A stretch of DNA of 52,046 nucleotides from Nemertoderma westbladi (lineage: Eukaryota; Animalia; Xenacoelomorpha): the NCBI GenBank assembly GCA_032718475.1, contig JAUCBJ010007922.1, forward strand, positions 1 to 52,046, read 5' to 3'. Of this stretch, positions 2,759 to 51,221 are shown piece after piece. Every line of letters begins with the position of its first letter. Within the stretch, counting starts at the first letter, position 1. Made by a program: the position numbers and the translations under genes. The notes under the pieces were generated by a model. It worked only from the letters and a program-made list of their open reading frames with translations. It made no database searches and had not been told where the DNA came from.

Positions 2759-2797
2759 TTTTTTCATTTTTTGGTGTCAGTTTTAGGTTTGTCCGGT

Positions 2798-3490: not shown

Positions 3491-3617
3491 TATAATTGCT
3501 CGGTTTTATCGCGTGAAAAACCCCACCCACGCATATAATCGATACTATTTATAACGGTGGTGGTGTTTTATTACTTACTATTATTGTTCTCGTTTATATA
3601 AGTTATTAATATATGTA

Positions 3618-8380: not shown

Positions 8381-8977
8381 ATGGATAAATTTCTAAGTCG
8401 CAGCCGTGGGCGTGATTATTACCCGACGCTGGAAAACCCGGGAATAATAGTAGATTTCCAATATTATACGCATCTTCCGCAGATCGACCAACACCCCGTT
8501 GCAACCATTTATTTTAAAGAGTTTGCGGCTTATAATACTACCATCAAATCATTAGAAAACGTATGGTTTATTAATGGTCCACCTGCAAAAATTTTAAGTT
8601 TAAGCGAATACGACCGTCTCACACAACTCGCCAATATTACGCATCACATTAATTTTGACTACGGATTTATGGACCAAAGCGCATTTAAAATGTACATACA
8701 GGAATGGTTACAAGAAAAAAAACGGTTGGGGTTTCAAATATTAATACGCGGAATACCGAAATTATTTATTTTAAAAAATGAATTTAATGTGAATGGAACA
8801 CTTCTAGAAACGTACGGCATAAACGAAAAATATGTTGATTATGACACCAAATGCCTTTTTCACGATTTTTCGGCAATAACAAATTGTGCCTACCATTCTG
8901 ATAATAGTGATTTTTGTTTTAATTATTGTTCTGCGAAACTCGCGGTTGGTTATGGGAAATGGTTGTCGTCGAATTAA
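8381..8977 (+). CDS. Putative DEDD/RNase-H-fold protein with E-C-H-C zinc site (Maelstrom/arenavirus-NP-like pattern)
   Basis: IVDFQ...FKEFA, HHINFDYG, IRGIPK, C-terminal CAYH-x9-CS. The ORF is solid; the fold is inferred from motif pattern only. Confidence 0.5.
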   Translation: MDKFLSRSRGRDYYPTLENPGIIVDFQYYTHLPQIDQHPVATIYFKEFAAYNTTIKSLENVWFINGPPAKILSLSEYDRLTQLANITHHINFDYGFMDQSAFKMYIQEWLQEKKRLGFQILIRGIPKLFILKNEFNVNGTLLETYGINEKYVDYDTKCLFHDFSAITNCAYHSDNSDFCFNYCSAKLAVGYGKWLSSN

Positions 8978-17360: not shown

Positions 17361-19934
17361 ATGGAAAAAAGTAATTCGCATTGTGCTGGACAACTTTACA
17401 GTGGGTCTGGGGAGGTGGATTCGGCAATGGGAGACGCATTCGATAATTCTAACAACGTATTCCAAAACGAACCACCCACACATACCAGTACCGGTAACGG
17501 TAACACAGTAACAGCACCGGTTCCGCTACCGGTACATCATCATTATAAATTCAGCACTTTTGGAGACATAGGCCTAATGACCTATTCCAACACAGATTCT
17601 GTAGACGATATGGATACGGGTTCTTTTGATAACGAAGGCACTTTAATTGTGGGTAAAACTTTCTTTACAACAGTAACTAAAGACGCAGTGTTTACAGCGG
17701 GAACTAAAGACGCCGCGTTTACAACTGGAACTAAAGACACCGCGTTTACAGCGGGAACTAAAGACGCCGCGTTTACAACTGGAACTAAAGACGCCGCGTT
17801 TACAACGGGAACTAAAGACGCCGCGTTTACAGCGAGAACTAAAGACGCCGTGTTTACAGCGGGAACTAAAGACACCGCGTTTACAGCGGGAACTAAAGAC
17901 GCCGCGTTTACAACGGGAACTAAAGACGCCGCGTTTACAACGGGAACTAAAGACGCCGCGTTTACAACGGGAACTAAAGACGCCGCGTTTACAACGGGAA
18001 CTAAAGACGCCGCGTTTACAACAGGAACTAAAGACGCCGCGGTTACAGCGGGAACTAAAGACGCCGCGTTTACAACGGGGACTAATGAAGCCGCGTTTAC
18101 AACGGGAACTAAAGATGCCGCGTTTACAACAGGAACTAAAGACGCCGCGTTTACAACGGAAACTAAAGACGCCGCGTTTACAACGGGAACTAAAGATGCC
18201 GCGTTTACAACAGGAACTAAAGACGCCGCGTTTACAACGGAAACTAAAGACGCCACGTTTACAACGGAAACTAAAGACGCCGCGTTTACAACGGGAACTA
18301 AAGACGCCGCGTTTACAACAGGAACTAAAGACGATGATGTCTCATTGGAATCGCTACCCCTGACAATATACCTAAAGACTTCGCCCAGTCGGACAAAAAT
18401 ACTCAATAAATTCCGGGAAGAGAATGAATGCGGAACGTCTGGTGTGAAACCCGGAGTGTTGGGCCGGGATTGTTCCACCTGTAAACGGGGATTCACGCGA
18501 TACTCCTCGTTGAAACTCCACATCCGCAACGCGCACTTAAAGCGCAGAGTTTATCAGTGCGATAAATGCGAGAAACATTTTACATACCAGAGCAGTTTAA
18601 ACCATCACGAACAGAGCGCTCACGGTGATGGCAAGGTGCGATACAGTTGCGGTTATTGCGACAAACAATTCGCAACTAAATCCTACGCGAGGTTGCACAG
18701 CAGGTCCGTGCATGAGAACGCGGGATTCAGTTGTCGTCTTTGCGGTAAAGCTTTCACAACCTCGACGGCTCTCCGCAATCATACCGACTCGATCCACACC
18801 GGGTTGAAGTACAACTGCCCAGAATGCCCCAAAGTGTTTAACTTCAAGTTGAATCTCGTTACTCACGTGAAGACAACCCACGAGCACTCCGCGTTGAAAT
18901 GCACCGAGTGCGATAAATCCTATCCCATTTCTTCGAGACTTAAATTCCATGTGGACAGCGTCCATCGCGGTATCAGGTATCCCTGTTTGGTCTGCCCCAA
19001 AACGTTTCTACGGAAAGTAAATCTAAAACGCCATAACGCGTTTATCCACGAAAAATCCGGGTTCACATGCGAACAATGCGATAAGTTGCTGTCCAGTAGA
19101 TCCGCGCTCAAGAAGCACACTAAGGCGGTGCACACCGGCGGTGGCGATAAGAAGTGTTCGTGTCAGCAGTGCGGGAAGTGGTTCAAAGAGACGCGATACC
19201 TCCGTTCGCACGTCCGAACCACGCACAGCCGCGCAGTAGCGCATCCCTGCCCTCGCTGCGACGCGAAACTCGCCACTAAATTCCGATTGGCGCGACACAT
19301 TCGCGAGAAACACGAGGGCGCGCGATACGCCTGCGAGCATTGCGACAAGTCCTACCTGATGGCCTGGCAACTGACGCAACACGTGAAAGTCGCGCACGAG
19401 AACGCGAGACTCGAGTGCGCCGATTGCACTAAGTCGTTTCGTAATCGTTGGCAACTCAATCATCACACGAAGACTTCGCACGAAGGTCTGCGTTTCTGTT
19501 GCCCGCAGTGCAGTAAAGCGTTCACAATGAACGCCTATCTCAATAAACATATAAAATCAGCTCACGAAGGCTGCGGATTCAAGTGCACTCATTGCGATCG
19601 TTCGTTTATCTGTAAAGGCGACGTGAAGCGGCACATCGCCACTATCCACGAACAGTTCGTTAAGTTCGACTGCGAGTTGTGCGATAAAGCGTTCAACCGG
19701 AAAAGCAACCTTAAGAAGCACCGCGCCTCGGTGCACGAAGGGTTGCGGTACAACTGCCCCTCCTGCGCGAAAACCTTCAGCGAGAAGTCCAAACTCCGGC
19801 AGCACATTGGGGCGAGCCATCAGGGGCTGTCGCACGAGTGCGAGCATTGTAGTAAGTCGTACGGCACTAAGTGGCATCTTACTAGACACACCAGGACTCA
19901 TCACGCACAACTTGTAGGAGGCCTACTTCATTAG
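17361..19934 (+). CDS. Multi-C2H2 zinc-finger protein (17 fingers) with N-terminal 9-aa tandem repeat
   Basis: Seventeen Cx2C-x12-Hx3-4H units, mostly Hx4H with HE/HEG-type linkers. First ATG 17361; a possible splice acceptor TTTTAAG at 17330 means an upstream exon cannot be excluded. Confidence 0.92.
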   Translation: MEKSNSHCAGQLYSGSGEVDSAMGDAFDNSNNVFQNEPPTHTSTGNGNTVTAPVPLPVHHHYKFSTFGDIGLMTYSNTDSVDDMDTGSFDNEGTLIVGKTFFTTVTKDAVFTAGTKDAAFTTGTKDTAFTAGTKDAAFTTGTKDAAFTTGTKDAAFTARTKDAVFTAGTKDTAFTAGTKDAAFTTGTKDAAFTTGTKDAAFTTGTKDAAFTTGTKDAAFTTGTKDAAVTAGTKDAAFTTGTNEAAFTTGTKDAAFTTGTKDAAFTTETKDAAFTTGTKDAAFTTGTKDAAFTTETKDATFTTETKDAAFTTGTKDAAFTTGTKDDDVSLESLPLTIYLKTSPSRTKILNKFREENECGTSGVKPGVLGRDCSTCKRGFTRYSSLKLHIRNAHLKRRVYQCDKCEKHFTYQSSLNHHEQSAHGDGKVRYSCGYCDKQFATKSYARLHSRSVHENAGFSCRLCGKAFTTSTALRNHTDSIHTGLKYNCPECPKVFNFKLNLVTHVKTTHEHSALKCTECDKSYPISSRLKFHVDSVHRGIRYPCLVCPKTFLRKVNLKRHNAFIHEKSGFTCEQCDKLLSSRSALKKHTKAVHTGGGDKKCSCQQCGKWFKETRYLRSHVRTTHSRAVAHPCPRCDAKLATKFRLARHIREKHEGARYACEHCDKSYLMAWQLTQHVKVAHENARLECADCTKSFRNRWQLNHHTKTSHEGLRFCCPQCSKAFTMNAYLNKHIKSAHEGCGFKCTHCDRSFICKGDVKRHIATIHEQFVKFDCELCDKAFNRKSNLKKHRASVHEGLRYNCPSCAKTFSEKSKLRQHIGASHQGLSHECEHCSKSYGTKWHLTRHTRTHHAQLVGGLLH
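17676..18332 (+). repeat. 27-bp coding minisatellite, ~24 copies (TKDAAFTTG)
   Basis: Consensus ACTAAAGACGCCGCGTTTACAACGGGA, in frame within the zinc-finger ORF. Confidence 0.97.
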
Positions 19935-25079: not shown

Positions 25080-28000
25080 ATGTCTGACACAAAGCAAAAC
25101 CTGTCAGACAGTCTCTTAGATACAACCATCTGTGACCCAGACAGGAGTGTGGAACGTGTGAGACCGAAGTTCAATTCACCTCCTACTGTAAGAAAGATCA
25201 TCCCTCCAGTAGTAGTATCAGACCCTAGGCTAGTCCAACACCGTAGGTCTATCATAGGCACTCGAGCTCAGGTCAAGCGGGACTAAGAAGCAGAGGAACA
25301 GCAGCAACACTCGAGCCGAGAACTTATTTCTCAGCGGCCCGACAGCTCCAGTAGTGCGGATACTGTAGAGCTGACACCAGAGTGCAGAGCAAAGATGGCA
25401 GATGCGGTTTATTCGGACCCCCTTCTCATCCTTCCTGCAGCCGTACTCACTAGGGTATTGATTGCGGTGGAGGAACACCAGATTGATTGGGCGAGAAGTA
25501 AGCGATCGACCAAGGATAGTTATGCGGGATATACAAGGGAAGAACTGAAGTCTATTGTCGAGTCGCAATGGAACTTCCCCGGACCCGGACTACCGTTTGA
25601 CTTATCGGAAGCTGCCTGGGAAGACATACACAGGATGGGAGTAACAAAAGAAACCAGTGATCCAGCTGTGTGGAAGATGTCTGCAGCAGGATACGTACAG
25701 GGATTCTTCAGCTCTATGGAGCGATTAGAGGAACAACTGTTTAGACAACCCCAAGGACCTCAAGAGCAGGGAGAGCTGCTTTATCAAGTTAGAGAAAGAA
25801 TTCTAAGAATCAGACTAATCTTATCGGCCTTTGAGGAAGCTTCAAAAAGAAGACAAGACATGTCGTTGCAAGTTGCTGTAAAGACTTGGTTCCAGCGGGT
25901 GAGTCTCCAGGTTCAAGGAGTTCAAGGAACGGCCCAGTGGACAGCTCGGCTGGCTGAGCGCTCAACCCATGGAGAATCAACAGACGCTACCTTTTCCCAA
26001 GTGGAAAGTGAAGCGACAGCTGAGAAACCGCATAAGAGGGATGCTATTGACATCTATCTGTCAGACTATCAACGATTTGTAGGTGACGAAGAGTTGAGGA
26101 GACGGCTGTCTGGACTTCGCCCTAATAGTGAAGGAGCCAAGCTTGTGTTGGACGCAATCGATGCGGATATGATAGCTGCGAACCAAGCTAAATTTGATGA
26201 ACGCCTCCGCATCGCTAGAGTCCAAGAAGAACAAGTCAAGAAAAAACGTATAGAAGACAGAAAGACAGCGGCAGTGGCAGCAGCAGTGGCAGAAGCGGAA
26301 AGAAAGGCGGTAGAAGTGGAAAGAAAAGCGGCAGCGGCAGAGGCAGAAGCGGAAAGAAAAGCAGCCGAAGTGGAAAGAAAAGCGGCAGTGGCAGCGACAG
26401 AAGCAGAACGGAGAGCATCTGAAGAGATCGCCCAACTAGAGTTGGAAAATATTCAAGAGAATCAAGACTGCATAAATAAACAGTTAACAGCTAGTCAAAT
26501 GCAGATGATGAGTCGATCTACTCCCAAAAGACAGGGATATACATCATCTGATGAAGGCGATACCACCGATCTTGAAGGCGGAGGAAATAGATCTCGTCTA
26601 AGTAGACGTAGAAGAATGTCCCACCGTCAGAAATTGCCTGATTTGCCCCCAGCTGTTAGAAAGCAACTAACTAACACAGACTTAGGTAGTACAGAACCCA
26701 CAGACCAAATAATTAAAATAGAAAGACTCCCTACTACAGTAGATGAGCCTGAAATAATTAGGCCTGTTCTCGAAACCACCCCTTCGGTGATAGAGATACC
26801 TGTACTCCCAGAGCCTACCTCTAAATTCCCTCTGCACAGCACTAAGCTACCTGTGCCCCACAGAGCCACCCCTGAAAATGTTCATGTCCTGGACTCCGAG
26901 CGAAATATTAATGATTTGTCGCCCGTTGTCCCTCGTCCGCCCGCTACAACGTTGGCGGCTCCTGCTTCGGCGGTCGAGTGGGTGGATGAGAGACGGCGGG
27001 GGATGGATCTCCTGCTCGGGCAGATGCAGGAGACTGTTCAGCAGTTCAAGGGCACAGTAAGGGAAAGTAGGTTAGAGTTACAAGAAGTGCAGCAAAGTAT
27101 CGCGTTAGAACGCGATAAATTAGTAAATACCCAAAGAGGTATACCACCACCCCCGGTAACAATGTGTCAACCTGTTAGGTCTGAAGTATTTCATGCGCAA
27201 GGTGTGGAGCCTACACGCATCTATACTGCTAGTGAAGTGGAAACTCCTATAGTAAACCCTATTAAGGGTAATTATAAACCTGTTGACAATGATATTCCAT
27301 ATAGACCTGATCCTAATCCGAGAAATTTATATACCGATAACTCGATATTAAATAATATGATGGCCCAAGAAAGTTTTACGCGTCAAATGGCTAGAACCGA
27401 AGCCCGACAAGCGGTAAAAGTGGGAGAGATCGTCAAGTTCAATGGAGATGAGATGAAATGGTTACCTTTTAATGAATATTACAAAGATAACATACAGAAC
27501 TCTGTACTATCTAACGGAGAGAAACTTAGATTCCTCATCGAGTGCTTGGAAGGACCTCCCAAGTTAATGGCGTTAAGGTTTATTGGACATCCAGATGGAT
27601 TAAGACAAGTTTGGGATACACTAAACATCAGGTATGGTAATAGGACTAACATAGCTAGGTATTTTTATGCGAAATTAATGACGCCCCGAAAGTTTCTTAG
27701 CAGCGGGATTATAGAGTTTTCCAACGAGATTCAGGAGATCTGTAGACAACTAGATTGGTTAGGTAAGTCTCATGAATACCAGAATTCTATGGTTGTAGGA
27801 GCCTTAGCATCTACTTTGCCCAAGGGTGGAGTAGGTACACGCTGGGACAAGAAAGTGTTATATATGATGGAACAACAACAAAGAGATCCTACCATGGCTG
27901 ATCTCATGTCATTTTTAGATGGAGAGGTAAAATTACAGCTCCTAAAGCAGTCCAGAGAGAAGACACCGGAAAATAAAGTAAGTGAGAAACCCATTTCTAG

Positions 28001-29726
28001 GAGAAAGGTAATACCAGTGTGTTATACAGACGACAGCGAAAGCCAGGCTTCTCAAGAGGAAGACAGCGGGAAAGACACTGAAAGATCTTACTATGACAAC
28101 AAAGCGCCTAAGGACGTAAGTAAATTCAAGTCTCGAACCAATGACAGGAGAGAACAGGTAAGAAAAACTCCTCCTACGTCTCCTAAGAGAATTCATGTAA
28201 GAAAGCCCGAGGAAAGAACGAGTGTACACAATGTTACCCAAAGTAAGGTAAGTAACATCAAACCAATATGTGTGATGTGCGACGGGCCCAACTGTTTAAG
28301 TGCGTGTGATGAATTCCTAAAGAAATCATTAAAGGATAGACGGGAAGTCATGTGGGATAAGCGGTTGTGTTATAATTGCCTCAGACAAGGACACCAACGG
28401 CGAACCTGTTACTCCGACGCAAGGTGTGCGAAGTGCGGCGCAAAACATCATATCTTGTTGCACACTGAATTCGAACGAAACAGCCCGAGTCAGGTAAGTG
28501 AGACCGAACTACATGTCCAATTCAGTGATGTGAACGACACTGACCAAAGTTCTGAGATGGAAGGATTCTATACCGACGAATTCTCCGACAAAAACGAATC
28601 CTGTTACCTGATAAATACCGCAGTGTATCGAGCACTTACGTATGAAAAGGACACCAACAGCGAGCTCCCCCTAACTACTTCTGACCGACAACCATCTTGG
28701 AAAGCACCAACTTCCAATGTAGGAATCCGAGAATTTCCCGTAGTGCAGTTGAGGGTCCACGGACCTGAAAGGAGTTATATAGTGAACGCCCTCCTTGACT
28801 CTGGTAGCACAGGAACATTCATCGACAAAGAACTAGCCGAAGACATCTTTGCTGGACAACCCAAGTTCCGAACTAAGTTAAACATGTCAGGAATTATGCA
28901 GGTTTGGAAATCTACAGTAATAGCAGATTATTATGTAGGTGCGTTGTCCACCCCCCAGGATGAACTAGGAGAACACAGTATAAGGTCAGTAAAAATGGTG
29001 GCGATAAAGAACTTCGCTACCAGCCAAGTAGAACCTTATAACTGGGATGAGGACGATTTCACCCAGCAGCTTAAGATACATAGATTCAACACAGACTACC
29101 CTGGAGTGCAAATACTCATCGGCCAAAATGCGCATGAGGCGCTTGAGACATTGGAGAAACAGCCTGCTCAACCGCAACCACTACAAGCCTATGCGGGAAG
29201 AACTAGAGTAGGTTGGTACTTTACTGGCCCTTCCCGTAGAACTCTCATGGAAAGGTTACCAAAAGAACGGGTATACCAAGTAAGTGAATGGGAAGCGAAG
29301 AGCAGTGAGGTAGACGACCCAACTGAGGGAACACCATACTCCTCAGATAATGACGATATTAACTCCAATGTAGATCAATGGAGACATTGCCCCGAGACGA
29401 TTAATCTAGCCGACATCGCTTCCAGAGGAGCAACTCCTCAAGAACTGACAGATACTCCAGACTGGTTAGGTGGACCCGACTTCCTAAGTAAAGAAGATGA
29501 ATGGCCTCCCCATCTTACCACGGCTGAGATTAGACAAGCCAAGGGAGCGGAGAAAGTCAAACCTAAAACCCGGACGAGTAAATCAAGGTTATTTAAACCC
29601 GTGATAGATCAGTCTGTACTACACATTGCCAGGGACGATGCTGTGGATCTAAACTCCCCCACCGCGAACCGATCTGTTGTGGAGATCAGAGAGAGAGACT
29701 GGAGATCTGGAACACCAGACGTCTAG
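25080..29726 (+). CDS. gag: BEL/Pao Gag-aspartic protease fused to RNase H C-terminal remnant; one in-frame TAA at 25284-25286 (uninterrupted ORF 25395-29726)
   Basis: Coiled-coil; KFNGDEMKWLPF...EKLRFL..L.G (DUF1759-like); three Cys/His knuckles (CVMC, CYNCLRQGH....C, CAKCGAKHHILLH); ALLDSGS protease; RTRVGW, then directly QWRHCP...NLADIASRG...WLGGPDFL...WP. Confidence 0.9.
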
Positions 29727-39223: not shown

Positions 39224-40325
39224 ATGTCTGACACAAAGCAAAACCTGTCAGACAGTCTCCTAGATACAACCATCTGTGACCCAGACAGGAGTGTGGAACG
39301 TGTGAGACCGAAGTTCAACTCACCTCCTACTGTAAGAAAGATCATCCCTCCAGTAGTAGTATCAGACCCTAGGCTAGTCCAACACCGTAGGTCTATCATA
39401 GGCACTCGAGCTCAAGAAGCAGCGGAACAGCAGCAACACTCGAGCCGAGAACTTATTTCTCAGCGGCCCGACAGCTCCAGTAGTGAGGATACTGTAGAGC
39501 TGACACCCGAGCACGGAGCAAAGATGACAGATGCGGTTTATTCGGATCCCCTTCTCATCCTTCCTGCAGCCGTACTCACTAGGGTATTGATTGCAGTGGA
39601 GGAACACCAGATTGATTGGGTGAGAAGTAAGCGATCGACTAAGGATAGTTATGTGGGATACACAAGGGAAGAACTGAAGTCTATTGTTGAGTCGCAATGG
39701 AACTTCCCCGGACCCGGACTCCCGTTTGACTTATTGGAAGCTGCCTGGGAAGACATTCACATGATGGGAGTAACAAAGGAAACCATCGATCCAGCTGTGT
39801 GGAAGAGGTCCGCAGCAGGATACGTACAGGGATTCTTCAGCTCTTTGGAGAGATTAGAGGAACAACTGTTTCGACAACCCCAAGGACCTCAAGAGCAGGG
39901 AGAGCCGCTTTATCAAGTTCGAGAATGAATTCTAAGAATCAGACTAATCTTATCGGCCTTTGAGGAGGCTTCGAAAAGAAGACAAGACACGTCGTTGCAA
40001 GTTGCCGTAAAGACTTGGTTTCAGCGAGTGAGTCTCAAAGTTCAAGGAACTGCCCAGTGGAAATCTCAGCTGGTTGAGCGCTCAACCCATGGAGAATCAA
40101 CAGACGCTACCTTTTCCCAAGTGGAAAGCAAAGCGACAGCAGAGAAACCGCATAAGAGGGATGCTATTGACATCTATCTGTCAGACTATCAACGCTTTGT
40201 AGGTGATGAAGAGTTGAGGAGAAGGCTAGATGGACTTAGCCCTAATAGTGAAGGAGCCAAGCTTGTGTTGGATGCAATCGATGCGGATATGAGAGCTGCG
40301 AACCAAGCTAAATTTGATGAACGCC
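39224..40325 (+). pseudogene. gag: Disrupted gag of L2
   Basis: Homologous to 25080-26205; AGA>TGA nonsense at 39926-39928; truncated by P2 after ...AAATTTGATGAACGCC. Confidence 0.9.
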
Positions 40326-41358
40326 AGTAGTAGGGTCTTCCTCCTCTCTGTGACAGTTAGACCTAACTGACACCCATTGGGTGTCATATGACACCCAATT
40401 ATCACCCTATGGGTGTCATTGGGTGTCATTGGCGCCAGACTGTCTGGGTGACACCTCCCAATTAGGCTAATTAGACCCTAATTGACAGGTGTCATCAATT
40501 AATTAGTATAATTAAACCCTAACAGGTGTCATATGACTCCTAATTAGGGTTTAATTGATTATCCTAATTAATCAGACTGATTAGCGCCCTGACACACAAT
40601 GGGTCATCAGTGATGTCTAACTGTCGCAGAGAAGGGGGAAGAGGGTGTCATAAGTGACACCGCAGCTCTTTTATTCATTAATACTTATTTATTTATATTT
40701 AATTTTAATTAATTATTTGCATTTTATTTTATTCGTATTTATTCATTTGTACTTTATTTTAAATTAATTAATTGTATATATTACTTTTACTTTATACATT
40801 GATTTCTATTTTTAGATTAATTAGTTTTTATATTACCAACGAGATCACTATGACATAATGTCTATTTTTAACTTTATAATGGCTACGGTATACGGCTCCC
40901 TACTGGCAACTATCAACTGCGTTCATCGGCGGGGGCCCCTCCTCTGCCATCATTATTCATTAACTAGATACGACAGGCAGTGAATCTATACGTATACCCC
41001 CAAGGCAAATATAAATCAGCGGTCCCGTCTGTTAGCAGCCCCCTCGATGACTCACTAATAATCCCAATGCGGCCTTGACTACAGCAAATCCGTATATCGC
41101 CCAAGGCTAATGGTCCAGCGGCCCTCCATTGTTCTCATTATAGCCGGCATCGCTTTATCCCTTTCCTATATCCAGGCAGCCCGTATCATAACAATGAAGC
41201 GCCTCTAATCACACATTCCTCTCTACTAATCCCTTTCCTTTGCACCAGACCTGCTTCTGTTATACAGCCAACTCAACATAATTAGTCAAGATGCCTACAG
41301 GGGTTTCTAATATAGAATCAACACGAGAAGTTGCCCTGGTTACCGCTTATGCATGAAC

Positions 41359-41450: not shown

Positions 41451-41600
41451 ACGTCCCCACCAATATATTAGGTCATTATTTCAATTGCAAGTTACGATTA
41501 ACATCATTTACCATTATTTTGTTTTCGAATTTAATATTATTTATTTAAGAATATTTATTTGTTATCGTCAGTCAACTATCCAGTTGTATAGTTGTATTAT

Positions 41601-42413
41601 TGTCATTTCGCCGCGTTATCGCTCATCGTCGACAACAAACTTTCCGCGTATCCACCGCGTAATATTTCAATATTTCTAATTTCCGATACCATTCTGTTCT
41701 ATCGGTTGATAAACTCTCTCGTCGTCCACGTCAACCAACTTCCTTGTCACCAACGAACTTCCAAACTTCTTCTTTCTGTGAATATTTACTAACACCGTAA
41801 GTAAAAACTGCCTTCCATCTAGCTATACTTTCGACGCCGCTAGCAAACAATTTACATTTAATGTCTACCGGTACAACAGTATTGCAGTAGGCTCATTATT
41901 AATTACTGTCAGACTGCGGTGGTACCGATAGCCTAAACCGTGATCGAAGCATTCGATCAATAGGCCTACATCCGCCTATTTGCTTACAGTATTTTTTATC
42001 TTTTTACAAATAATCAACTTATTTTTCTAGTGTCATTTCGCCGCGTTAACGCTCATCGTCGACAACAAACTTTCCGCATATCCGCCGCGTAATATTCCAA
42101 TATTTCTAATTTCCGATACCATTCCGTTCTATCGCATTAATAAACTCTCTCGTCGTCCACGTCAACCAACTTCCTCATCGCCACCGAACTTCCAAACTTC
42201 TTCTTTCCGTGAATATTTACTAACACCGTAAGTAAAATCTGCCTTCCACCATCTCCATCGACGCCGCTAGCAAACAATTTACATTTAGGCCTAATGTCTA
42301 CCGATACAACAGTATTGCAGTAGGCTCATTATTAATTACTGTCAGACTACGGTGGTACCGATAGCCTAAACCGGGATCGAAGCATTCGATCAATAGGCCT
42401 ACATCTGTCTATC
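41601..42413. repeat. ~430-bp tandem duplication with splice signals (putative non-coding leader exons)
   Basis: TGTCATTTCGCCGCGTT... at 41601 and 42031; each has ACC|GTAAGT; acceptor-like TTTTTCTAG at 42030 and 42935. Confidence 0.85.
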
Positions 42414-42942
42414 TGCTTGTCTACCTGACTACCGGTACCCCATCATTCGAGTTAGTCTAATGCCATCATAGTAACGATATAGACCCTACTGAACAACACT
42501 GAATACTGCAGTTTTCACTATATATCCTACTGACTAACTGAGTTCTCACACAGCGATTAGCTAGGCCTATCGTTGATTTGTATTGGTTAACGCTACCGGT
42601 ACGTCTGACTTCTGGCAGACTTTTCACTAGCACTACTGCTCTGACTGACTGACTGTTGTTTATAGACCCTCTTTCCACGAATAATAACTGGCATCGCTTT
42701 TGTGTCTTGGTTATCGCCACTATCTAACCGCTGGTACACTAACACTTCCACACTAGATACTGCCGACTGCCTGCTTTATGTTTCACTGACTGATTGCTAC
42801 AATACAGCAATAGGCCTAACTATATAAACACAGTATTGTTGCCTAGTAACCGATTAATACCTACTGTTTTACTTTATTTTTAGCAAGTATACAGTATTTT
42901 TTATCTTTTTATAAATAATCAACGTATTTTTCTAGATTCAAG

Positions 42943-43939: not shown

Positions 43940-46900
43940 ATGTTTGATTTTTCCAATTTAAGTTTCCCGGTGGACAGAGTAACTGGTATTCCCCAGTTTC
44001 TGAAAGCCAACCCTATATACTGTATAAACCTTCTTTATTGGAGTAATACGGAAGAACTCTCCATTCTAAGTCAACCAGATAGCGCGCACTGTTCCGGTAA
44101 AACTGTACTAAACTTATTATTTATCGAAGCCATAAGCAAAAACCCTGCCCACTACGTAGCTATTACTAACATAGATAGACTAATAAATTCAAAAGATTCA
44201 GACGGTAACAAGACGCACTGCGAACGCTGTCTCAGAGGCTTTTACACTGACAAATCACTGGGAGAACATCGAGAGCGCTGCTATACGGGTAAACGCCAAC
44301 TCGAGTATATGCCCGAAAATCTCTTGGTTAAATTTGACAGGTACGATAAGACTCTATCCCCGCCTTTCTGTATATACGCCGACATTGAAACTATTCTAGA
44401 ACCTACAAACAATATTAAACTCCCACAGAAACATATAGCTAGCGCGGCAGCCTTTTATACAGTACCAAATCAGAAATTAATTAACCCTCCTAAAACAGAT
44501 GTTCAAATTTTCCGCGACGATGGCAGTAACCACGTAATGCGCGACTTTCTAACCGCTATGGAAAGTCATTGTAGGGAGTTATACGATTGGTCCATTTCTA
44601 GTACAAACACACGCGCCCCCATGCAACTCACTACTAGCCAACAAACTGACTTTAATAACGCTACACAATGCTACGTCTGCAACTGTAATTTAACCCCCGA
44701 TTCTCATAATTTAAACCTCAATGACAATCTCAGCACCAAAGTCCGCGATCACGATCATTATAGCGGGGAGTATCGAGGAGCTGCTTGCGTCAGCTGCAAC
44801 AGGAAACTTTCCCTAAAACGGAATAATTTTTATATTATATTTCATAACTTGAGGAAATTCGATATGCATTTACTACTAAAAGAAGGAATGACCGATAGTT
44901 CTAGAACACACTGGAAAATGACTGTAATACCAAAAAACACCGAAACTTATATTCACCTTAAAGTTAGCTTTCCAATCGATCCGAGTACCCCAACAGCCAA
45001 CGCTAAAGAAAGTATCTCCATTAATTTTCTAGATTCCTATCAGTTTATGACTGCCAGCCTAGATAATCTTAGTAGCTATCTCACTAAAAATAACAGTAAC
45101 CTAGCAACAGCCATACCCCATACACTAGCTCAAATGACCCAACTCTATCCCAACATTAGCGATAACACAATAAAAAACAAGGGCATATTCCCATATTCCT
45201 ACATTCAAAATATTTCAAACCTACACGAAACTACACTCCCCCCAATAGAAAGCTTCTATAATGATCTCAAATTGGAACAATGTAGCGCAGAAAACTATCA
45301 GCGCGCGCTTACTACTTGGGATGAATTAAACTGCCTAACAATCTTCGACTATATGATTGGCTATTTGGTTCTAGACGTTACCCTATTGGCTGATACTTTC
45401 GAGCAGTTCCGATCCCTCTGTCTTACTAATTATGGACTCGAGCCCATAATGTACTTCACTGCCCCTGGATTAACTTACGACGCGGCATTGAAATTCACGC
45501 AATCAGAAATTCAATTACTATCAAACGCTTCCATCTACTCGGACTTTGAAACAAATATTAGGGGTGGTCTAGTTTTCTTGAATACACATTCCGTAGACGC
45601 AAATATTCCCGATAAACCCGACTACGACTCCAGTCTCCCCGAGAAATATCTAATTCCCATCGATGCGAATAACCTTTACGGCTGCGCCCTGAGCCAGAAA
45701 CTTCCCTACGCTAATATTAAACTCGTAACTACCCCCATAGACCTAGCTACAGTAGACGCGAGTGGGGCCACTGGTTATTATTGCATAGTTGATCTACATT
45801 ATCCGAAAGAAATTCATGATTTGACCGCCGATCTGCCTCTAGGAGCGGAGAAGATGTCAGTCCCTAAATCCTTTCTTAGCGAATACATGGAAGATCTTTG
45901 GGAGCATTACAATCTCACCGATACGGCTACCTGTAGACCATACAACGATACCTGTACTAAGCTACTACTACATCAGTTTAATAAGGTTGAATACGGTATC
46001 CATATTAAGCTACTTCAGCTCTATTTGAAGCTCGGTCTTAAACTTACACAAGTACATAGGGTCTACTCTTTCTCACAAAAATATATTTTCAAGGACTACA
46101 TTAGTTTTAATACGAATAAAAGACAGTCGGCAAATAACCCATTCGAGATCCTATTTTATAAGTTGATGAACAATGCCTTGTATGGGAAATGCCTCCAAAA
46201 GGTTAGAGACCGCGTTTCTTTCAGGTTATGCAATAGCGACGAACAATGCGATTTGCTCTTAGCCAAGCCCAACCACGAATCGTTTGTTGTCTTTACCCCC
46301 AACTTGAGTGGACATACTTTCACTAAAGAGGCTGTTTGCCTAAATCAGGGCGTGTTCATCGGTTGCACTATACTAGATCTATCTAAGCTACAGATGTACG
46401 ACCTATTTTACAACAAACTGAAGCCTCTAGAACAAAAACTGGATTGCCAGATTCGCTGTCTAGCCGGTGACACGGATTCTCTAATGCTAAGCGTAACTAA
46501 TGCACCACAGCTAACCTTTCTACGGGCAATGTTTGAGGGTGGTTTCCTAGATACTTCCAACTACAGTACAACACATCCACTCTATACCATTAAACACAAA
46601 GCGGCTCTCGGCTTCGTAAAAGATGAGAGCTGCGGTTTGCAGTATAAACAGTGGGTTTTCCTTAAACCAAAGGTCTACAGTTTTCAATCCTATGATGCCC
46701 CAATCAAGAAAACCGCCAAAGGTGTATCTAGATCGGTTGTCGCTAAGCAACTAACACACGAGGATTATGCAGACTGTTTTGAAAACGAGGCAATGCTCTT
46801 CCGCTATAACTCTACCTTCACTTCTAGAAAGCATCAAATTTTTACTGGTCATGTCTATAAGAAGGCACTAACGCTCTGGGATACGAAATCATATTGGAGT

Positions 46901-46990
46901 AGTAAATATAGCAGCAAACCATACGGGCACTATAGCACTAAGCTTGTTAGACCGGCGAAACGAGTAGTAATCCCCCCTACTAGAATTTAA
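43940..46990 (+). CDS. polB: Protein-primed family B DNA polymerase with EndoVII-like zinc insert
   Basis: CERC..H..C finger, YADIE, CYVC...VRDHDH.SGEYRGAAC..CN, FHNLRKFD, FLDSY, DANNLYG, KLMNNALYGK, AGDTDS, AKGV. Frame open from 43865. Confidence 0.96.
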   Translation: MFDFSNLSFPVDRVTGIPQFLKANPIYCINLLYWSNTEELSILSQPDSAHCSGKTVLNLLFIEAISKNPAHYVAITNIDRLINSKDSDGNKTHCERCLRGFYTDKSLGEHRERCYTGKRQLEYMPENLLVKFDRYDKTLSPPFCIYADIETILEPTNNIKLPQKHIASAAAFYTVPNQKLINPPKTDVQIFRDDGSNHVMRDFLTAMESHCRELYDWSISSTNTRAPMQLTTSQQTDFNNATQCYVCNCNLTPDSHNLNLNDNLSTKVRDHDHYSGEYRGAACVSCNRKLSLKRNNFYIIFHNLRKFDMHLLLKEGMTDSSRTHWKMTVIPKNTETYIHLKVSFPIDPSTPTANAKESISINFLDSYQFMTASLDNLSSYLTKNNSNLATAIPHTLAQMTQLYPNISDNTIKNKGIFPYSYIQNISNLHETTLPPIESFYNDLKLEQCSAENYQRALTTWDELNCLTIFDYMIGYLVLDVTLLADTFEQFRSLCLTNYGLEPIMYFTAPGLTYDAALKFTQSEIQLLSNASIYSDFETNIRGGLVFLNTHSVDANIPDKPDYDSSLPEKYLIPIDANNLYGCALSQKLPYANIKLVTTPIDLATVDASGATGYYCIVDLHYPKEIHDLTADLPLGAEKMSVPKSFLSEYMEDLWEHYNLTDTATCRPYNDTCTKLLLHQFNKVEYGIHIKLLQLYLKLGLKLTQVHRVYSFSQKYIFKDYISFNTNKRQSANNPFEILFYKLMNNALYGKCLQKVRDRVSFRLCNSDEQCDLLLAKPNHESFVVFTPNLSGHTFTKEAVCLNQGVFIGCTILDLSKLQMYDLFYNKLKPLEQKLDCQIRCLAGDTDSLMLSVTNAPQLTFLRAMFEGGFLDTSNYSTTHPLYTIKHKAALGFVKDESCGLQYKQWVFLKPKVYSFQSYDAPIKKTAKGVSRSVVAKQLTHEDYADCFENEAMLFRYNSTFTSRKHQIFTGHVYKKALTLWDTKSYWSSKYSSKPYGHYSTKLVRPAKRVVIPPTRI

Positions 46991-47013
46991 TTTAATTTTT
47001 CTAGAATAAGAAA

Positions 47014-47520
47014 TTGAACAACAAAATAGAAATAACCAATAAACAGTTTACCGGAAAAAACATTGCCAAATTTGAACTAGATAAAATTTCACAGCAAATT
47101 ATAGGTCAAAGTAGCTTAAAACCAAACATGTTTATCTACAAAGGTGACGATTCAACTATAATGCTATTTCCCAGCGGCGCAGTAACAATTGTAGGCCTGT
47201 GCAATAATTTAGCTAGTGAATTGCTTTATTTAAAACAAACTATCGATATGCAATTACAAAATTTGAAACTTAATACCGAAACACGAACTATTATTTTTCC
47301 AAGTGTTAATTTTAAATTATTAATGAAAAAATGTGGACATCATACAATTAATAATAAAGCAATATTTATTAGCTATACCCCCGAATTATTTTGCGCGATT
47401 AGAATATATATAGGACGTGCATATTTCAGTGTATTTCATAGTAATAAAATCGTTTCCATGTGTCCTGCCGGTGAATTCCCCGGATCATTATCTATTTTAC
47501 AAACTTTATTATTAAATTAG
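47014..47520 (+). CDS. TBP-like protein (no ATG at the N-terminus; possibly spliced)
   Basis: IMLFPSGAVTIVG, SYTPELF, FSVFHSNKIV; homolog of 2198-2758. Frame opens right after TTTTCTAG at 47004. Confidence 0.72.
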   Translation: MNNKIEITNKQFTGKNIAKFELDKISQQIIGQSSLKPNMFIYKGDDSTIMLFPSGAVTIVGLCNNLASELLYLKQTIDMQLQNLKLNTETRTIIFPSVNFKLLMKKCGHHTINNKAIFISYTPELFCAIRIYIGRAYFSVFHSNKIVSMCPAGEFPGSLSILQTLLLN

Positions 47521-47559
47521 TTTATTTACTATGGTATACATGAAAGTTTACTATATTAT

Positions 47560-48620
47560 TTATTTTGTGTTGGTTTTTATTTTTCCGTGAGTAGGGTTTG
47601 AATCCGTGACCATCCGTGTTACCCACTTTTTATAATTGCATTAGTAGGACTCGAACCCTGGTTTAACTTATTTTGTGTTGGTTTTATAATGGTCGCGAGT
47701 AGGGCTTGAACCCGTGACCTTCTGTTTATTTTCCATAAAACGGGATACGAGAAGGGGTCGAACCTGCGAGCATATATTTTTCCTATTTTGTGTTTAGTTT
47801 AGTTACTCTAGTTATTCTATGTTTACTTTTTATATTTTCATGATTAGGATTCGAACCCTGGTTTATCTTATTTTGTGTTGGTTTTATAATGGTCGCGAGT
47901 AGGGATTGAACCTATGACCTCCTGTTTATTTTCCATAAAACGGGATATGAGTAGGGATTGAGCCCGTGACCTTCTGTTTTTCCTATTTTATGTTTAGTTT
48001 AGTTACTCTAGTTATTCTATGTTTACTTTATTTTGTGTTGGTTTTATATTGGTCGCGAGTAGGGATTGAACCCGTGACCATCTGTTTATCCTATTTTGTG
48101 TTTACTTTTTATATTTTTCCATAAAACGGGATACGAGAAGGGGTCGAACCTATGACCATCTGTTTATCCTATTTTGTGTTTAGTTTAGTTACTCTATGTT
48201 AAAGTGAATTTTCACATTATATTTTCATGATTAGGATTCGAACCCTGGTTTAACTTATTTTGTGTTGGATTTATAATGGTCGCGAGTAGGGATTGAACCT
48301 ATGACCTCCTGTTTATTTTCCATAAAACGGGATACGAGTAGGGATTGAGCCCGTGACCTTCTGTTTTTCCTATTTTGTGTTTAGTTTAGTTACTCTAGTT
48401 ATTCTATGTTTACTTTTTATATTTTCATGATTAGGATTCGAACCCTGGTTTAACTTATTTTGTGTTGGATTTATAATGGTCGCGAGTAGGGATTGAACCT
48501 ATGACCTCCTGTTTATTTTCCATAAAACGGGATACGAGTAGGGATTGAGCCCGTGACCTTCTGTTTTTCCTATTTTGTGTTTAGTTTAGTTACTCTATGT
48601 TAAAGTGAATTTTCACATTA
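47560..48620 (-). repeat. Array of ~15 tRNA-3'-half / Pol III B-box motifs with ~200-bp higher-order repeat
   Basis: Minus strand reads GGTTCGAATCC, GGTTCGAGTCC, GGTTCGACCCC, GGTTCAATCCC every ~50-100 bp; 48221-48420 is repeated at 48421-48600. Confidence 0.85.
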
Positions 48621-48803
48621 TATTTGTGTTAAATTATAAATTTATGTTACAATTATTATCTATAATATAAAAAACAGAAATATTCGAGTTATATTGCATA
48701 TGAGCAATAAATTACAATATACGAGCTGTTAATTTTTCTTATTCTTACTAAACAAATGTTAATCTTCAAGTCAGTCCTTATTGGATCGAACTACAGTATA
48801 ATA

Positions 48804-49430
48804 ATGAGTGGGCCTATAGATGTACGGTTTAGGTTTGGTGCCACAATGTTAATGGCTGGCCCTTCTGGCAGTGGTAAAACTACATATTTGGAGCAAATAT
48901 TACAAAATAGCAAGCAAATTTTTGACGCGCAACCATCAGAGATTATTTGGATATATGGGCAAACTAAACCGATTGTGAAAGGTGTCAATATTACTACCTT
49001 AAATGAAATTCCGGAACACTTTAATCAAAATGTAAAAAGACAGAGTGTGATTATATTCGATGATTTAATGTCTGAGCTAGAGAATTCAAAGCAAACAACA
49101 ATTTTATTTACCAAAGTCGCGCGCCATTCGCATTCTTTTGTTATTTTTTTAACGCAAAACCTATTTCAGAAAGGAGGGGAAGCACGTACTCGATCTATTA
49201 ACTCTACCTATTTTTTACTATTTAAGAATCCGCGTGATTTAACGCAGATCAGAACCTTAGCCTATCAGATGAACCCAAATAATCCAAAATTTTTAATTAG
49301 CGCTTACCACGACGTTACACAGCAAGCATTCAATCCGCTTTTAATCGACTTTCATCAACAGACTCCAGAAAATCTGCGGATAAGGGCTAATCTATTCACG
49401 ATGGAACATTGTGTTTATCAGCCTTTGTAA
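48804..49430 (+). CDS. A32/FtsK-HerA-family packaging ATPase
   Basis: GPSGSGKT, IIFDD, LTQN, RTRSINSTY, KNPRD. Start at 48804 by alignment with P1 (48756 also possible). Confidence 0.95.
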   Translation: MSGPIDVRFRFGATMLMAGPSGSGKTTYLEQILQNSKQIFDAQPSEIIWIYGQTKPIVKGVNITTLNEIPEHFNQNVKRQSVIIFDDLMSELENSKQTTILFTKVARHSHSFVIFLTQNLFQKGGEARTRSINSTYFLLFKNPRDLTQIRTLAYQMNPNNPKFLISAYHDVTQQAFNPLLIDFHQQTPENLRIRANLFTMEHCVYQPL

Positions 49431-50081: not shown

Positions 50082-50296
50082 TGTCATGGATAAAAAGATT
50101 AACGGTAACCTGTAACCTTCATTGTCTATGTAATTCTAGAACAGTTAGTAATAGCTATGACGAGCAAGATTGTGGACCGCAAGTTACGCAAAATTTACTA
50201 CAGCGTTTCAAATGTTGCGGGATTTTCAAGTCAAAAAAAACTAAGTACTGCAACAAAAATCAAACCAGCTATAGTCAAAAAATGGTTGCAAGGTGA
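50081..50296 (+). CDS. Small Cys-rich ORF overlapping integrase start
   Basis: TAATG stop/start overlap; CNLHCLC; positional homolog of 5441-5623. Confidence 0.5.
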   Translation: MSWIKRLTVTCNLHCLCNSRTVSNSYDEQDCGPQVTQNLLQRFKCCGIFKSKKTKYCNKNQTSYSQKMVAR

Positions 50297-51221
50297 ATCT
50301 AATTACACTCTACATGCACCGGCGCGAAAACATTTCCCTACGAGTCGCATGTATTTTTATGGTATAAGCGACACAATTCAAGCGGATCTGATTGATATGC
50401 AACAACATCGGGAAACAAATTCTGATTATGGATATATTTTGACCGCAATAAACTGCTTTAGTAAGCGTGGATGGGCTTTACCCCTGAAACGAAAAACGGG
50501 AAAAGAAATTAAGCGTGTTCTAGAAACAATATTTAATGATGAAACACCTAGAAATTTGTGTACAGATCAAGGCTTGGAATTTGATAATAAACTGGTTTTG
50601 GATTATTTGAAACTAAAAAAGGTGAGGTACTATACAACCCGGTCTCAATTTAAGGCTGCAATCTGCGAAAGATTTAATAGAACTCTGAAAACGAAAATGT
50701 TCAAAATATTTAATCGACGCAAAAATTTTAAATGGCTTAAAATATTGCCGGAAATACTAGTAGCCTATAATAAATCGAAACATCGTTCAATTGGTATGGC
50801 ACCGTTACATGTAAATAAAACAAATGAGGATAAAGTACGTAAAAAACTATATGGAGACCTCTCTAAAATTAAAGTTTCCCCTCCAGTCTTTAAAATAGGA
50901 GACAGTGTGAGGTTAAATATTTCTAAAAATAAATTTGAGAAAGGTTATATTCAAGGTTGGACAACGGAAATTTTCACAATCGCGAGGATAAGAATGGATA
51001 GATTCCCGATCGCAATGTATCATGTAAAAGACGCCGTGGGCCGTGAGATTGAGGGAAGCTTCTACCCAGAAGAAATTCAGAGAGTTCAGCAAAAGAGCAA
51101 CATATTAGCAATCGATAACATAGTAAAATCGAGAAACAGAGGAGCCGAGCTGGAATATCTTGTTAAATTTAAAGGTTATAAGCGCGCAACCTGGATAAAA
51201 CAGTCTCAACTACGGAAATAG
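50157..51221 (+). CDS. int: rve DDE integrase with chromodomain-like C-terminus
   Basis: QADLIDM, TDQGLEF, CERFNRTLK, YNKSKHRSIGMAP, YLVKFKGY...TWI. Confidence 0.96.
   Translation: MTSKIVDRKLRKIYYSVSNVAGFSSQKKLSTATKIKPAIVKKWLQGESNYTLHAPARKHFPTSRMYFYGISDTIQADLIDMQQHRETNSDYGYILTAINCFSKRGWALPLKRKTGKEIKRVLETIFNDETPRNLCTDQGLEFDNKLVLDYLKLKKVRYYTTRSQFKAAICERFNRTLKTKMFKIFNRRKNFKWLKILPEILVAYNKSKHRSIGMAPLHVNKTNEDKVRKKLYGDLSKIKVSPPVFKIGDSVRLNISKNKFEKGYIQGWTTEIFTIARIRMDRFPIAMYHVKDAVGREIEGSFYPEEIQRVQQKSNILAIDNIVKSRNRGAELEYLVKFKGYKRATWIKQSQLRK

What the first reader, a model, noticed from the sequence alone, without database searches (positions are those of the whole stretch)
47560..48620. Array of ~15 tRNA-half/B-box motifs directly beside the TBP-like gene
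Seen: on the minus strand a unit reads TAAACAGG-AGGTC-ATAGG-TTCAATC-CCTAC-TCGCGACCA. This matches the anticodon-stem 3' strand, 5-nt variable loop, T-arm hairpin and acceptor-like tail of a tRNA (tRNA-Thr-like by recall). Other units give perfect B-boxes GGTTCGAATCC (plus strand ~47847, 48234, 48434), GGTTCGAGTCC (~47647) and GGTTCGACCCC (~47754, 48140). All point the same way, with A-rich spacers and no tRNA 5' half or obvious A-box; one unit type is followed by TTTT. Known: B-boxes bind TFIIIC, which loads TBP-containing TFIIIB; isolated B-boxes act as chromatin barriers; adenoviruses make Pol III VA RNAs. Inference: a cis+trans module (viral TBP plus TFIIIC platform) acting as insulator between replication and virion genes, anti-silencing barrier, TFIIIC sponge, or source of VA-like small RNAs.
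Basis: partly seen in the sequence, partly recalled or inferred. Interest (0 to 1): 0.88.

Follow-up and report, generated by a model that had tools for sequence, protein, structure and literature searches.

The report
Polinton's tRNA-derived B-box cluster
A virus-like jumping element in an animal genome carries 15 tandem scraps of a tRNA gene that have lost the tRNA fold but mostly kept the short DNA signal read by the host factor TFIIIC, so they likely serve as a landing strip for that factor, a use known from yeast chromosome boundaries but not found in print for such elements.

Summary
Fifteen tRNA-3'-half-derived units lie on the minus strand (47560-48640) between a TBP-fold gene and the packaging ATPase of a Polinton. 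Eleven score 14.6-17.3 of 17.3 on a published B-box matrix, above all 101,670 background sites. They are not tRNAs or folded RNAs: ARAGORN and Rfam find nothing, there is no A-box, the outer T-stem pairs are broken, and nothing folds clearly better than shuffles. Changes between units fall on the tolerant B-box positions (7 changes at 3 free sites, 2 at 8 fixed; P about 0.002), which suggests selection on the DNA motif. The array occurs in three studies of the same organism and is not a dispersed SINE. None of 4 other TBP-bearing elements has an array, so there is no general TBP-plus-array module. One cDNA-like library shows a polyadenylated plus-strand RNA running through the array, so it lies antisense in the TBP-like gene's 3' UTR. 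Best reading (0.5): a cluster of TFIIIC-binding sites like the fission-yeast IR boundary; binding and function are untested.

The parts
47560..48640 (-). Tandem array of 15 tRNA-3'-half-derived units; about 200-bp higher-order repeat of three unit types (A, B, C) plus one degenerate end unit; box-to-box spacing mostly 52, 55, 93
48541..48551 (-). Type A box GGCTCAATCCC (weak, matrix score 8.6); TTTT at 48527-48524
48489..48499 (-). Type B box GGTTCAATCCC (15.7), the most tRNA-Thr-like unit type
48434..48444 (-). Type C box GGTTCGAATCC (16.6)
48341..48351 (-). Type A box GGCTCAATCCC (8.6); TTTT at 48327
48289..48299 (-). Type B box GGTTCAATCCC (15.7)
48234..48244 (-). Type C box GGTTCGAATCC (16.6)
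48140..48150 (-). Type A box GGTTCGACCCC (14.6); TTTT at 48126
48062..48072 (-). Type B box GGTTCAATCCC (15.7)
47954..47964 (-). Type A box GGCTCAATCCC (8.6); TTTT at 47940
47902..47912 (-). Type B box GGTTCAATCCC (15.7)
47847..47857 (-). Type C box GGTTCGAATCC (16.6)
47754..47764 (-). Type A box GGTTCGACCCC (14.6); TTTT at 47740
47702..47712 (-). Type B box GGTTCAAGCCC (16.3)
47647..47657 (-). Type C box GGTTCGAGTCC (17.3, the matrix maximum)
47594..47604 (-). Degenerate end unit GATTCAAACCC (8.0)
47005..47520 (+). TBP-like gene: open stretch of 171 codons whose first ATG (47128) lies about 41 codons into the predicted fold; full two-repeat TBP saddle
46328..48696 (+). Span covered by run X4, with a template-switch-adaptor-like loose end at 46328 and an untemplated poly(A) at 48696; read as one mRNA whose 3' UTR holds the array antisense (inferred from adjoining contigs; none spans it whole)
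48666..48673 (+). TATAAAAA, 90 nt before the ATPase ATG and 30 nt before the poly(A) site; possible ATPase TATA box and/or poly(A) signal (inference)
43940..46990 (+). Protein-primed DNA polymerase B of the Polinton
   Evidence: PF03175, E 5.7e-18
48756..49430 (+). A32-like packaging ATPase, first gene of the virion/integrase block
   Evidence: PF04665, E 2.5e-6
50157..51221 (+). Retrovirus-like integrase with chromodomain-like tail
   Evidence: PF00665, E 3.3e-6, below Pfam cut-off
40326..40335 (+). Probable left end of this element (AGTAGT start; terminus motif recalled), following sequence that resembles the DUF1759 ORF at 25395

Best explanation
The array is a tandem amplification of a tRNA-Thr-like 3' half inside a Polinton that has lost the A-box and the tRNA fold but kept the B-box, and it likely works as DNA, as a cluster of binding sites for host TFIIIC that would help keep the chromatin at the junction of the TBP-like gene and the virion-gene block open or bounded. 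Shown: the units, their tRNA origin, B-box scores, loss of A-box and fold, the substitution pattern, presence across the family. Inferred: that the pattern reflects selection; that TFIIIC binds (the B-box alone is the high-affinity site, PMC12409998); that bound TFIIIC acts as a barrier or anti-silencing element here as at ETC sites and the fission-yeast IR elements. It is probably not a hard transcription block, since a plus-strand RNA crosses it.
For: 11 of 15 boxes outscore all 101,670 background sites on a published matrix (PMC12498455 Table 3). Across 11 distinct units, parsimony gives 7 changes at positions 57/59/60 and 2 at the 8 fixed positions (binomial P 0.002; without the CpG pair 5 vs 2, P 0.008). 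The 8 fixed positions change less than random sets of sites (P 0.0003 in 36-76, 0.002 in 48-73). Changes fall as matrix information rises (rho -0.62, permutation P 0.025). Position 59 shows all four bases while C56, A58 and C61 never vary. CpG is not depleted here (o/e 1.0-1.3), so methyl-CpG decay does not explain position 57. Units were recovered without the box pattern, which argues against ascertainment. Outer T-stem pairs are broken, folds are no better than shuffles (z -2.2 to +1.4), and there is no A-box. Seven of the 40 variant rows shown (of 44) in other copies fall inside boxes: at 57, 59, 59, 60, 52, 52, and 54 towards consensus; none at 53, 55, 56, 58, 61, 62 (mapped by hand).
Against: No binding or chromatin data. 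Few independent events: with type C units left out, the excess at free sites is not significant (P 0.22) and the fixed-site deficit weakens to P 0.02. Flanking 48, 63 and 66 are invariant too, so part of the conservation may be recent common ancestry. Four of 15 boxes are weak (T54C in three, G53A in one; 8.0-8.6) and were amplified anyway. Of 4 box-bearing diverged low-depth variants printed (table 5c), 1 has a perfect box and 3 have C56 and/or C61 changed. Many copy variants equal another unit's letters and may be mis-laid. No array in 34 distant loci, so it is lineage-specific. A plus-strand RNA reads through it. In fission yeast, deleting the five IR B-boxes alone gives only a mild defect (PMC4502379).
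Confidence: 0.5

Rival explanations
1. Functionless relic: a captured tRNA (or tRNA-derived SINE) fragment that expanded as a minisatellite in a tolerant 3' UTR. The B-box pattern is inherited from one or several tRNA donors rather than maintained.
For: Unit number varies between copies (joints skipping 402-902 nt). Weak boxes were amplified. 3 of 4 diverged variants have broken boxes. Absent from 34 related loci and from the window's other Polinton. Type C may come from a separate donor, which would inflate the changes at free sites.
Against: Changes concentrate at tolerant positions while T-stem partners decayed. Seven different box sequences mostly stay within the matrix. Diverged copies (about 88-89% alike) keep a unit at the same place, one with a perfect box.
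Confidence: 0.2
2. Pol III mini-genes: type A units are worn-down tRNA genes (TATA-like element upstream, B-box, TTTT three bases after position 73) that make short unstructured minus-strand RNAs. These would be antisense to the TBP-like 3' UTR and could act as decoys or by transcriptional interference.
For: TTTT sits where a tRNA gene's terminator would in 5 of 5 type A units. TATAAAAA occurs 4 times on the minus strand, 70 nt before a type A box in 2 cases. A faint TAG-start 11-mer lies 46-55 nt upstream. BLV runs a Pol III cluster on degenerate A-boxes (PMC12498455 abstract).
Against: A-box scores are at chance (P 0.4-0.9). 3 of 5 type A boxes are the weak ones. The best boxes (type C) have no terminator of their own. 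A TATAWAWR per 200-bp monomer has chance 0.15. No fold.
Confidence: 0.15
3. RNA-level element: the constraint is on a minimal T-loop hairpin (3 bp) in a minus-strand RNA, or on plus-strand 3' UTR sites complementary to tRNA 3' fragments.
For: Pairs 51-63, 52-62, 53-61 hold in 15, 15 and 14 of 15 units. One diverged variant changes C61 to T opposite A53, which would restore that pair. The array is inside a plus-strand mRNA.
Against: Pairs 49-65 and 50-64 are mostly broken. One transition is weak evidence of covariation. No stable fold on either strand. No 5' acceptor partner.
Confidence: 0.08
4. Coupled module: TFIIIC on the array loads the element's own TBP-like protein on the TATAAAAA at 48666 to switch on the ATPase and virion genes.
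For: The gene has a true TBP fold. The boxes point so that TFIIIB would be placed on the ATPase side (established geometry of type II promoters), and a TATA match lies 115 nt from the first box and 90 nt before the ATPase ATG.
Against: 0 of 4 other TBP-bearing elements have an array, including L056 where the TBP-like frame ends 40 nt before the ATPase frame. No shared late-promoter motif was found in either window element. The protein is only 17-20% identical to cellular TBP, so Brf1/TFIIIC contacts are doubtful.
Confidence: 0.07

Closest known systems
Fission-yeast IR-L/IR-R boundary elements and ETC (extra-TFIIIC) sites (PMC4502379 passages; PMC12409998 passages)
   Same: Clustered B-boxes without a tRNA gene: five in a 327-bp deletion span in IR-L, 15 (11 strong) in about 960 bp here. 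No Pol III product needed.
   Different: Those are host chromosomal sites with measured TFIIIC binding and barrier activity. This one is carried by a mobile virus-like element, visibly descends from a tRNA 3' half by tandem amplification, lies in a transcribed 3' UTR, and is untested.
TFIIIC-bound Alu/SINE elements (PMC7014570 abstract)
   Same: A mobile element carrying a Pol III promoter box that can recruit TFIIIC and alter nearby chromatin.
   Different: SINEs are dispersed, carry A and B boxes and move through their Pol III RNA. These units are tandem, lack an A-box and are not dispersed.
Viral Pol III RNA clusters: adenovirus VA RNAs, MHV68 TMERs (both recalled), BLV miRNA cluster (PMC12498455 abstract and section 10)
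   Same: Repeated Pol III-type signals and T-runs in a viral non-coding region; position between replication and virion genes resembles the VA locus (recalled).
   Different: Those make folded RNAs from A+B-box promoters. Here there is no A-box, no fold and no Rfam match.
Intact tRNA genes of polinton-like viruses (PMC12220804 passages: 558 tRNAs in a PLV/virophage collection)
   Same: tRNA-derived sequence on a Polinton-type genome; a likely source of the unit. Loci L057 and L058 carry an intact tRNA-Met about 1 kb after the polymerase.
   Different: Those are whole cloverleaf genes; these are amplified 3' halves.
TBP-like genes of MELD viruses/Polintons (10.1101/697771 passages) and herpesvirus TBP mimics (PMC12529657, PMC7498053, search listing only)
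   Same: A virus-encoded TBP-fold protein.
   Different: No link to B-box arrays appeared in what I read; the link is not general in the loci checked here.

Membership tests
tRNA gene | Cloverleaf with D-arm, anticodon arm and paired acceptor stem | tested here: not met
   ARAGORN 0 genes in the window; Rfam 0 matches to E 5 on 47000-49000, only chance-level non-tRNA matches on one unit
tRNA gene | Five-pair T-stem | tested here: not met
   Pair 49-65 in 1 of 15 units, 50-64 in 3 of 15; inner three pairs in 14-15 of 15
Type II Pol III gene (tRNA, VA RNA, SINE head) | B-box | tested here: met
   11 of 15 score 14.6-17.3 of 17.3; 4 of 15 score 8.0-8.6
Type II Pol III gene (tRNA, VA RNA, SINE head) | A-box 30-95 nt upstream | tested here: not met
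   Best score 1.5 of 13.0, chance 0.5-0.8; same result with a matrix from 28 fetched tRNAs
Type II Pol III gene (tRNA, VA RNA, SINE head) | T-run terminator after the unit | tested here: inconclusive
   TTTT after 5 of 5 type A units, none directly after types B and C
Type II Pol III gene (tRNA, VA RNA, SINE head) | Pol III transcript | not testable with these tools
   Only assembled contigs were available; no small-RNA reads
VA RNA / TMER / BLV pre-miRNA type | Stable folded RNA | tested here: not met
   80-nt units z -2.2 to +1.4 on either strand (1 of 30 below -2); 200-bp monomer z +0.9 and +0.5
tRNA-derived SINE or host satellite | Dispersed copies with unrelated flanks | tested here: not met
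   Share of laid contigs running on into unlike sequence 0.01 in X1, X2, X3 at 80% likeness (0.16 in X4, at AT-rich flank places); 0 boxes elsewhere in the window
ETC site / IR-type TFIIIC boundary | B-box(es) without an associated Pol III gene | tested here: met
ETC site / IR-type TFIIIC boundary | TFIIIC occupancy without TFIIIB/Pol III | not testable with these tools
   needs ChIP
ETC site / IR-type TFIIIC boundary | Barrier or enhancer-blocking activity | not testable with these tools
   needs reporter assay
Polinton/Maverick (host element) | Protein-primed PolB, retrovirus-like integrase, packaging ATPase | tested here: met
   PF03175 E 6e-18; PF04665 E 2.5e-6; PF00665 E 3e-6 (below Pfam cut-off; 51% identical to the integrase of the window's other element)
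Polinton/Maverick (host element) | Major capsid protein, protease, matching terminal repeats | not testable with these tools
   This element runs off the window end; no genome held
TBP family (neighbouring gene) | Two-repeat saddle fold | tested here: met
   AlphaFold pLDDT 87; top Foldseek hits are TBP chains, TM 0.62-0.75, E 1e-8; profile hits 35 PDB TBP sequences. Pfam score alone is below cut-off
TBP family (neighbouring gene) | Binds TATA DNA and TFIIB-family factors | not tested
   No complex prediction was run

The most novel reading that the evidence does not exclude
A Polinton lineage has built, from one tRNA half, a multimeric TFIIIC platform that both shields it from host silencing and hands its own TBP-like protein to the TATA box of the virion-gene block: a Pol III assembly factor repurposed as the late-gene switch of an integrating animal virus.
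Probability: 0.1. Interest if true: 0.85.

Novelty: new variant of a known kind. Interest (0 to 1): 0.55.

Why it matters
How Polintons stay expressible inside host chromatin is an open question, and TFIIIC barriers are known mainly from host chromosomes and SINEs. A multi-copy element family carrying a natural B-box multimer gives a directly testable case of a virus-like element using that machinery, with natural strong and weak box variants as built-in controls. If no binding is found, it is an ordinary tRNA-derived minisatellite.

Tried and rejected
No host genome is held. ARAGORN and Rfam found no tRNA. A single-sequence homologue search with the TBP-like protein found nothing; the two-sequence profile found 7 proteins. 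An ATPase scan of viral contigs found no relative. Alignments A2 and A3 were too diverse for the locus search; smaller ones gave 34 distant loci (two contigs are fetched twice), many short, so their lack of arrays says only that the array is lineage-specific. A generic matrix from 28 unselected tRNAs scores positions 36-51 of the units only weakly (top 4-49% of background): tRNA likeness outside the box is isotype-specific. No RNA holder was listed; X4 is listed as a DNA guess and I read it as cDNA from its loose ends. X4 shows no cover of the ATPase or integrase, which is no evidence of silence. The X4 joint 46821-46999 has no GT/GC donor in any of 9 registers and an 8-nt direct repeat: not called an intron. 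A 107-letter X4 loose end before 46998 has no source in the window (15-letter probe). No shared late-promoter motif was found. Rejected: attP-like tRNA half (no tyrosine recombinase among the proteins scanned); CRISPR-like array (no unique spacers); coding repeat (stops in all six frames). The 4 weak boxes score 12-13 on the opposite strand but lack the key C there: not pursued. No complex prediction was run.

Full report
Setting. The window holds two Polinton/Maverick elements amid other repeats. The first (1 to about 11,600) has polymerase, a TBP-like gene, ATPase, integrase and protease-like genes. The second starts probably at 40326 and runs off the end: zinc-finger ORF, protein-primed polymerase (43940-46990), TBP-like gene, the array, A32-like ATPase (48756), integrase (50157). 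A DUF1759 ORF (Bel/Pao-type by recall) and a named abalone hit among the polymerase relatives point to an animal host. No genome is held.

Observation. Fifteen units lie on the minus strand, with G52 at 48551, 48499, 48444, 48351, 48299, 48244, 48150, 48072, 47964, 47912, 47857, 47764, 47712, 47657 and 47604. All 6 strict GGTTCGANNCC matches of the window are among them. GGTTCRANYCC occurs 11 times in the array, 0 times elsewhere, and at most once in 2000 shuffles. Flank motifs alone recover all 15; upstream flanks give no extra unit, and two extra hits of a loose AT-rich downstream motif have no matching upstream flank. The array is an A-B-C higher-order repeat of about 200 bp, so the independent content is 11 distinct units and 7 distinct boxes.

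Origin. A pattern taken from the unit matched 44 viral loci; 43 are tRNA genes, 34 of them Thr(TGT). The pattern contained the B-box, so this shows that the 13 letters before the T-arm are a natural tRNA-Thr-type sequence, not that the pattern is specific to tRNAs. A generic matrix from 28 other tRNAs scores that stretch only weakly. The units are not tRNAs: ARAGORN 0, Rfam 0. T-stem pair 49-65 holds in 1 of 15 units and 50-64 in 3 of 15, while the inner three pairs hold in 14-15. Folding z-scores of 80-nt units run from -2.2 to +1.4 on both strands. No A-box scores above chance with either matrix.

What is conserved. On the B-box matrix of PMC12498455 (Table 3), 11 boxes score 14.6-17.3 of 17.3, above all 101,670 background sites (max 11.8); 4 score 8.0-8.6. 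On a tree of the 11 distinct units there are 7 changes at positions 57, 59 and 60 and 2 at the other 8 box positions (binomial P 0.002; 5 vs 2 without the CpG pair, P 0.008). The 8 fixed sites change less than random site sets (P 0.0003 and 0.002 for two pools). Without the type C units the deficit is P 0.02 and the excess at free sites is not significant (P 0.22). Changes fall with matrix information (rho -0.62, permutation P 0.025). CpG is not depleted. C56, the base whose mutation severely lowers TFIIIC binding in yeast (PMC4228148), never varies in the window. Against this: few events, invariant flank positions 48, 63 and 66, three amplified T54C boxes, and a possible second donor for type C.

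Other copies. Runs X1, X2/X3 (one sample) and X4, from three studies of the same organism, hold the array; one may be the window's source. Contigs bridge the TBP-like gene into the array (X1 record 47353-47577; X2 record 47408-47658 with 28 other letters). Only 1% of laid contigs in X1-X3 run on into unlike DNA, so it is not a dispersed SINE or a one-copy insertion. Joints skipping 402-902 nt show that unit number varies. Of 40 variant rows shown (44 in all), 7 fall in boxes: at 57, 59, 59, 60, 52, 52 and 54 (towards consensus); none at 53, 55, 56, 58, 61, 62 (my mapping; many may be other units laid at the wrong place). Of 4 box-bearing diverged low-depth variants printed, 1 has a perfect box and 3 have C56 and/or C61 changed. 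These may be decayed old copies, or a sign of weak constraint. One of them pairs A53 with T61.

Transcription. X4 is listed as a DNA guess, but its cover starts at 46328 with a loose end equal to the last 21 letters of a template-switch adaptor (adaptor recalled; that 30-mer occurs with 'template switching' in 19 papers, listing only). It ends at 48696 with 19 A that are not in the DNA. I read this as a plus-strand mRNA that starts inside the polymerase gene, carries the TBP-like frame, and has the array antisense in a 1.2-kb 3' UTR ending 60 nt before the ATPase ATG. It rests on one library and adjoining contigs, none spanning the whole. It argues against a hard roadblock of the kind reported for yeast tDNAs (PMC4228148). 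It says nothing about minus-strand Pol III RNAs.

The TBP-like gene. The 171-codon open stretch folds as a complete TBP saddle (pLDDT 87; Foldseek TM 0.62-0.75 to TBP chains at 13-20% identity; 35 PDB TBP sequences by profile). Its first ATG lies about 41 codons into the fold, and how it is initiated is open. TBP-like genes in MELD viruses are already noted in print (10.1101/697771). The window's first element and 3 of 34 fetched related loci (L048, L056, L067) carry TBP-like genes. None has more than 2 loose same-strand B-boxes per kb, and in L056 the gene sits 40 nt before the ATPase frame with no array. So the TBP gene does not need the array. I found no shared late-promoter motif, unlike earlier unchecked notes on other genomes.

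Mechanism. Most likely (0.5) the units are kept as DNA for TFIIIC, whose tauB module binds the B-box alone with nanomolar affinity and occupies ETC sites without TFIIIB or Pol III (PMC12409998). The nearest analogue is the five-B-box IR element of fission yeast (PMC4502379); TFIIIC can also acetylate chromatin at Alu elements (PMC7014570). For an integrated element the plausible pay-off is keeping the TBP-gene/virion-gene junction open or bounded; that step is inference. Rivals: neutral tRNA-derived minisatellite (0.2); Pol III mini-genes from the five TTTT-ended units (0.15); RNA-level element (0.08); coupled loading of the element's TBP on the TATAAAAA at 48666 (0.07).

Novelty. Six full-text searches listed no paper whose title or abstract start describes B-box arrays in Polintons. 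The library lacks most subscription papers, I did not open supplements, and I saw only part of the longer listings (15 of 43, 15 of 52). An earlier unchecked note of this scan reports 1-4 degenerate tRNA-like Pol III units in a Polinton of another genome (e1-8072167), so this may be one case of a recurring theme; that is a lead, not support. It works like an ETC/IR-type cluster; membership cannot be claimed without binding data. Verdict: new variant of a known kind, interest 0.55.

Papers seen: 10.1101/697771, PMC4502379, PMC12220804, PMC12409998, PMC4228148 (passages); PMC12498455 (abstract, section 10); PMC7014570 (abstract and outline); PMC12529657, PMC7498053 (search listing). VA RNA, TMER, Bel/Pao and Polinton-terminus facts are recalled.

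Noticed in passing
L057:6343-6414 and L058:4157-4228: Two near-identical Polinton-like loci carry an intact tRNA-Met gene (T-loop starting GA, initiator-like by recall) about 1 kb after the polymerase.
   Followed up: partly
window 46328: cDNA 5' end inside the polymerase ORF in run X4, suggesting an internal promoter for the TBP-like gene; the expressed copy has a 1-nt gap at 46370.
   Followed up: partly
window 46821-46999: 177-nt skip in X4 between 8-nt direct repeats with no canonical donor; reverse-transcription artefact or deletion in the expressed copy.
   Followed up: partly
window 47003-47128: The TBP-like fold begins about 41 codons before the first ATG, just after a pyrimidine tract and AG that resemble a splice acceptor.
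   Followed up: no
window 2198-2758 and 2758-3618: The window's other Polinton has its own TBP-like gene (28% identical) followed by a duplicated AT-rich segment without B-boxes.
   Followed up: partly
window 8381-8977: 198-aa ORF in the first Polinton with a faint Maelstrom match (E 0.06); possibly a nuclease-fold protein.
   Followed up: no
window 40326-40640: Probable left end of the second element, rich in short TGACAC/GTGTCA repeats and inverted repeats.
   Followed up: no
window 41598-42420: About 430-bp direct duplication upstream of the zinc-finger ORF, containing a palindrome around 41941 and 42374.
   Followed up: no
window 17361-19934: C2H2 zinc-finger array ORF preceded by about 25 copies of a 27-bp (9-residue) repeat.
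   Followed up: no
window 25395-29726 and 39224-40325: DUF1759 gag-like ORF and a second partial copy, after which the second Polinton begins.
   Followed up: partly
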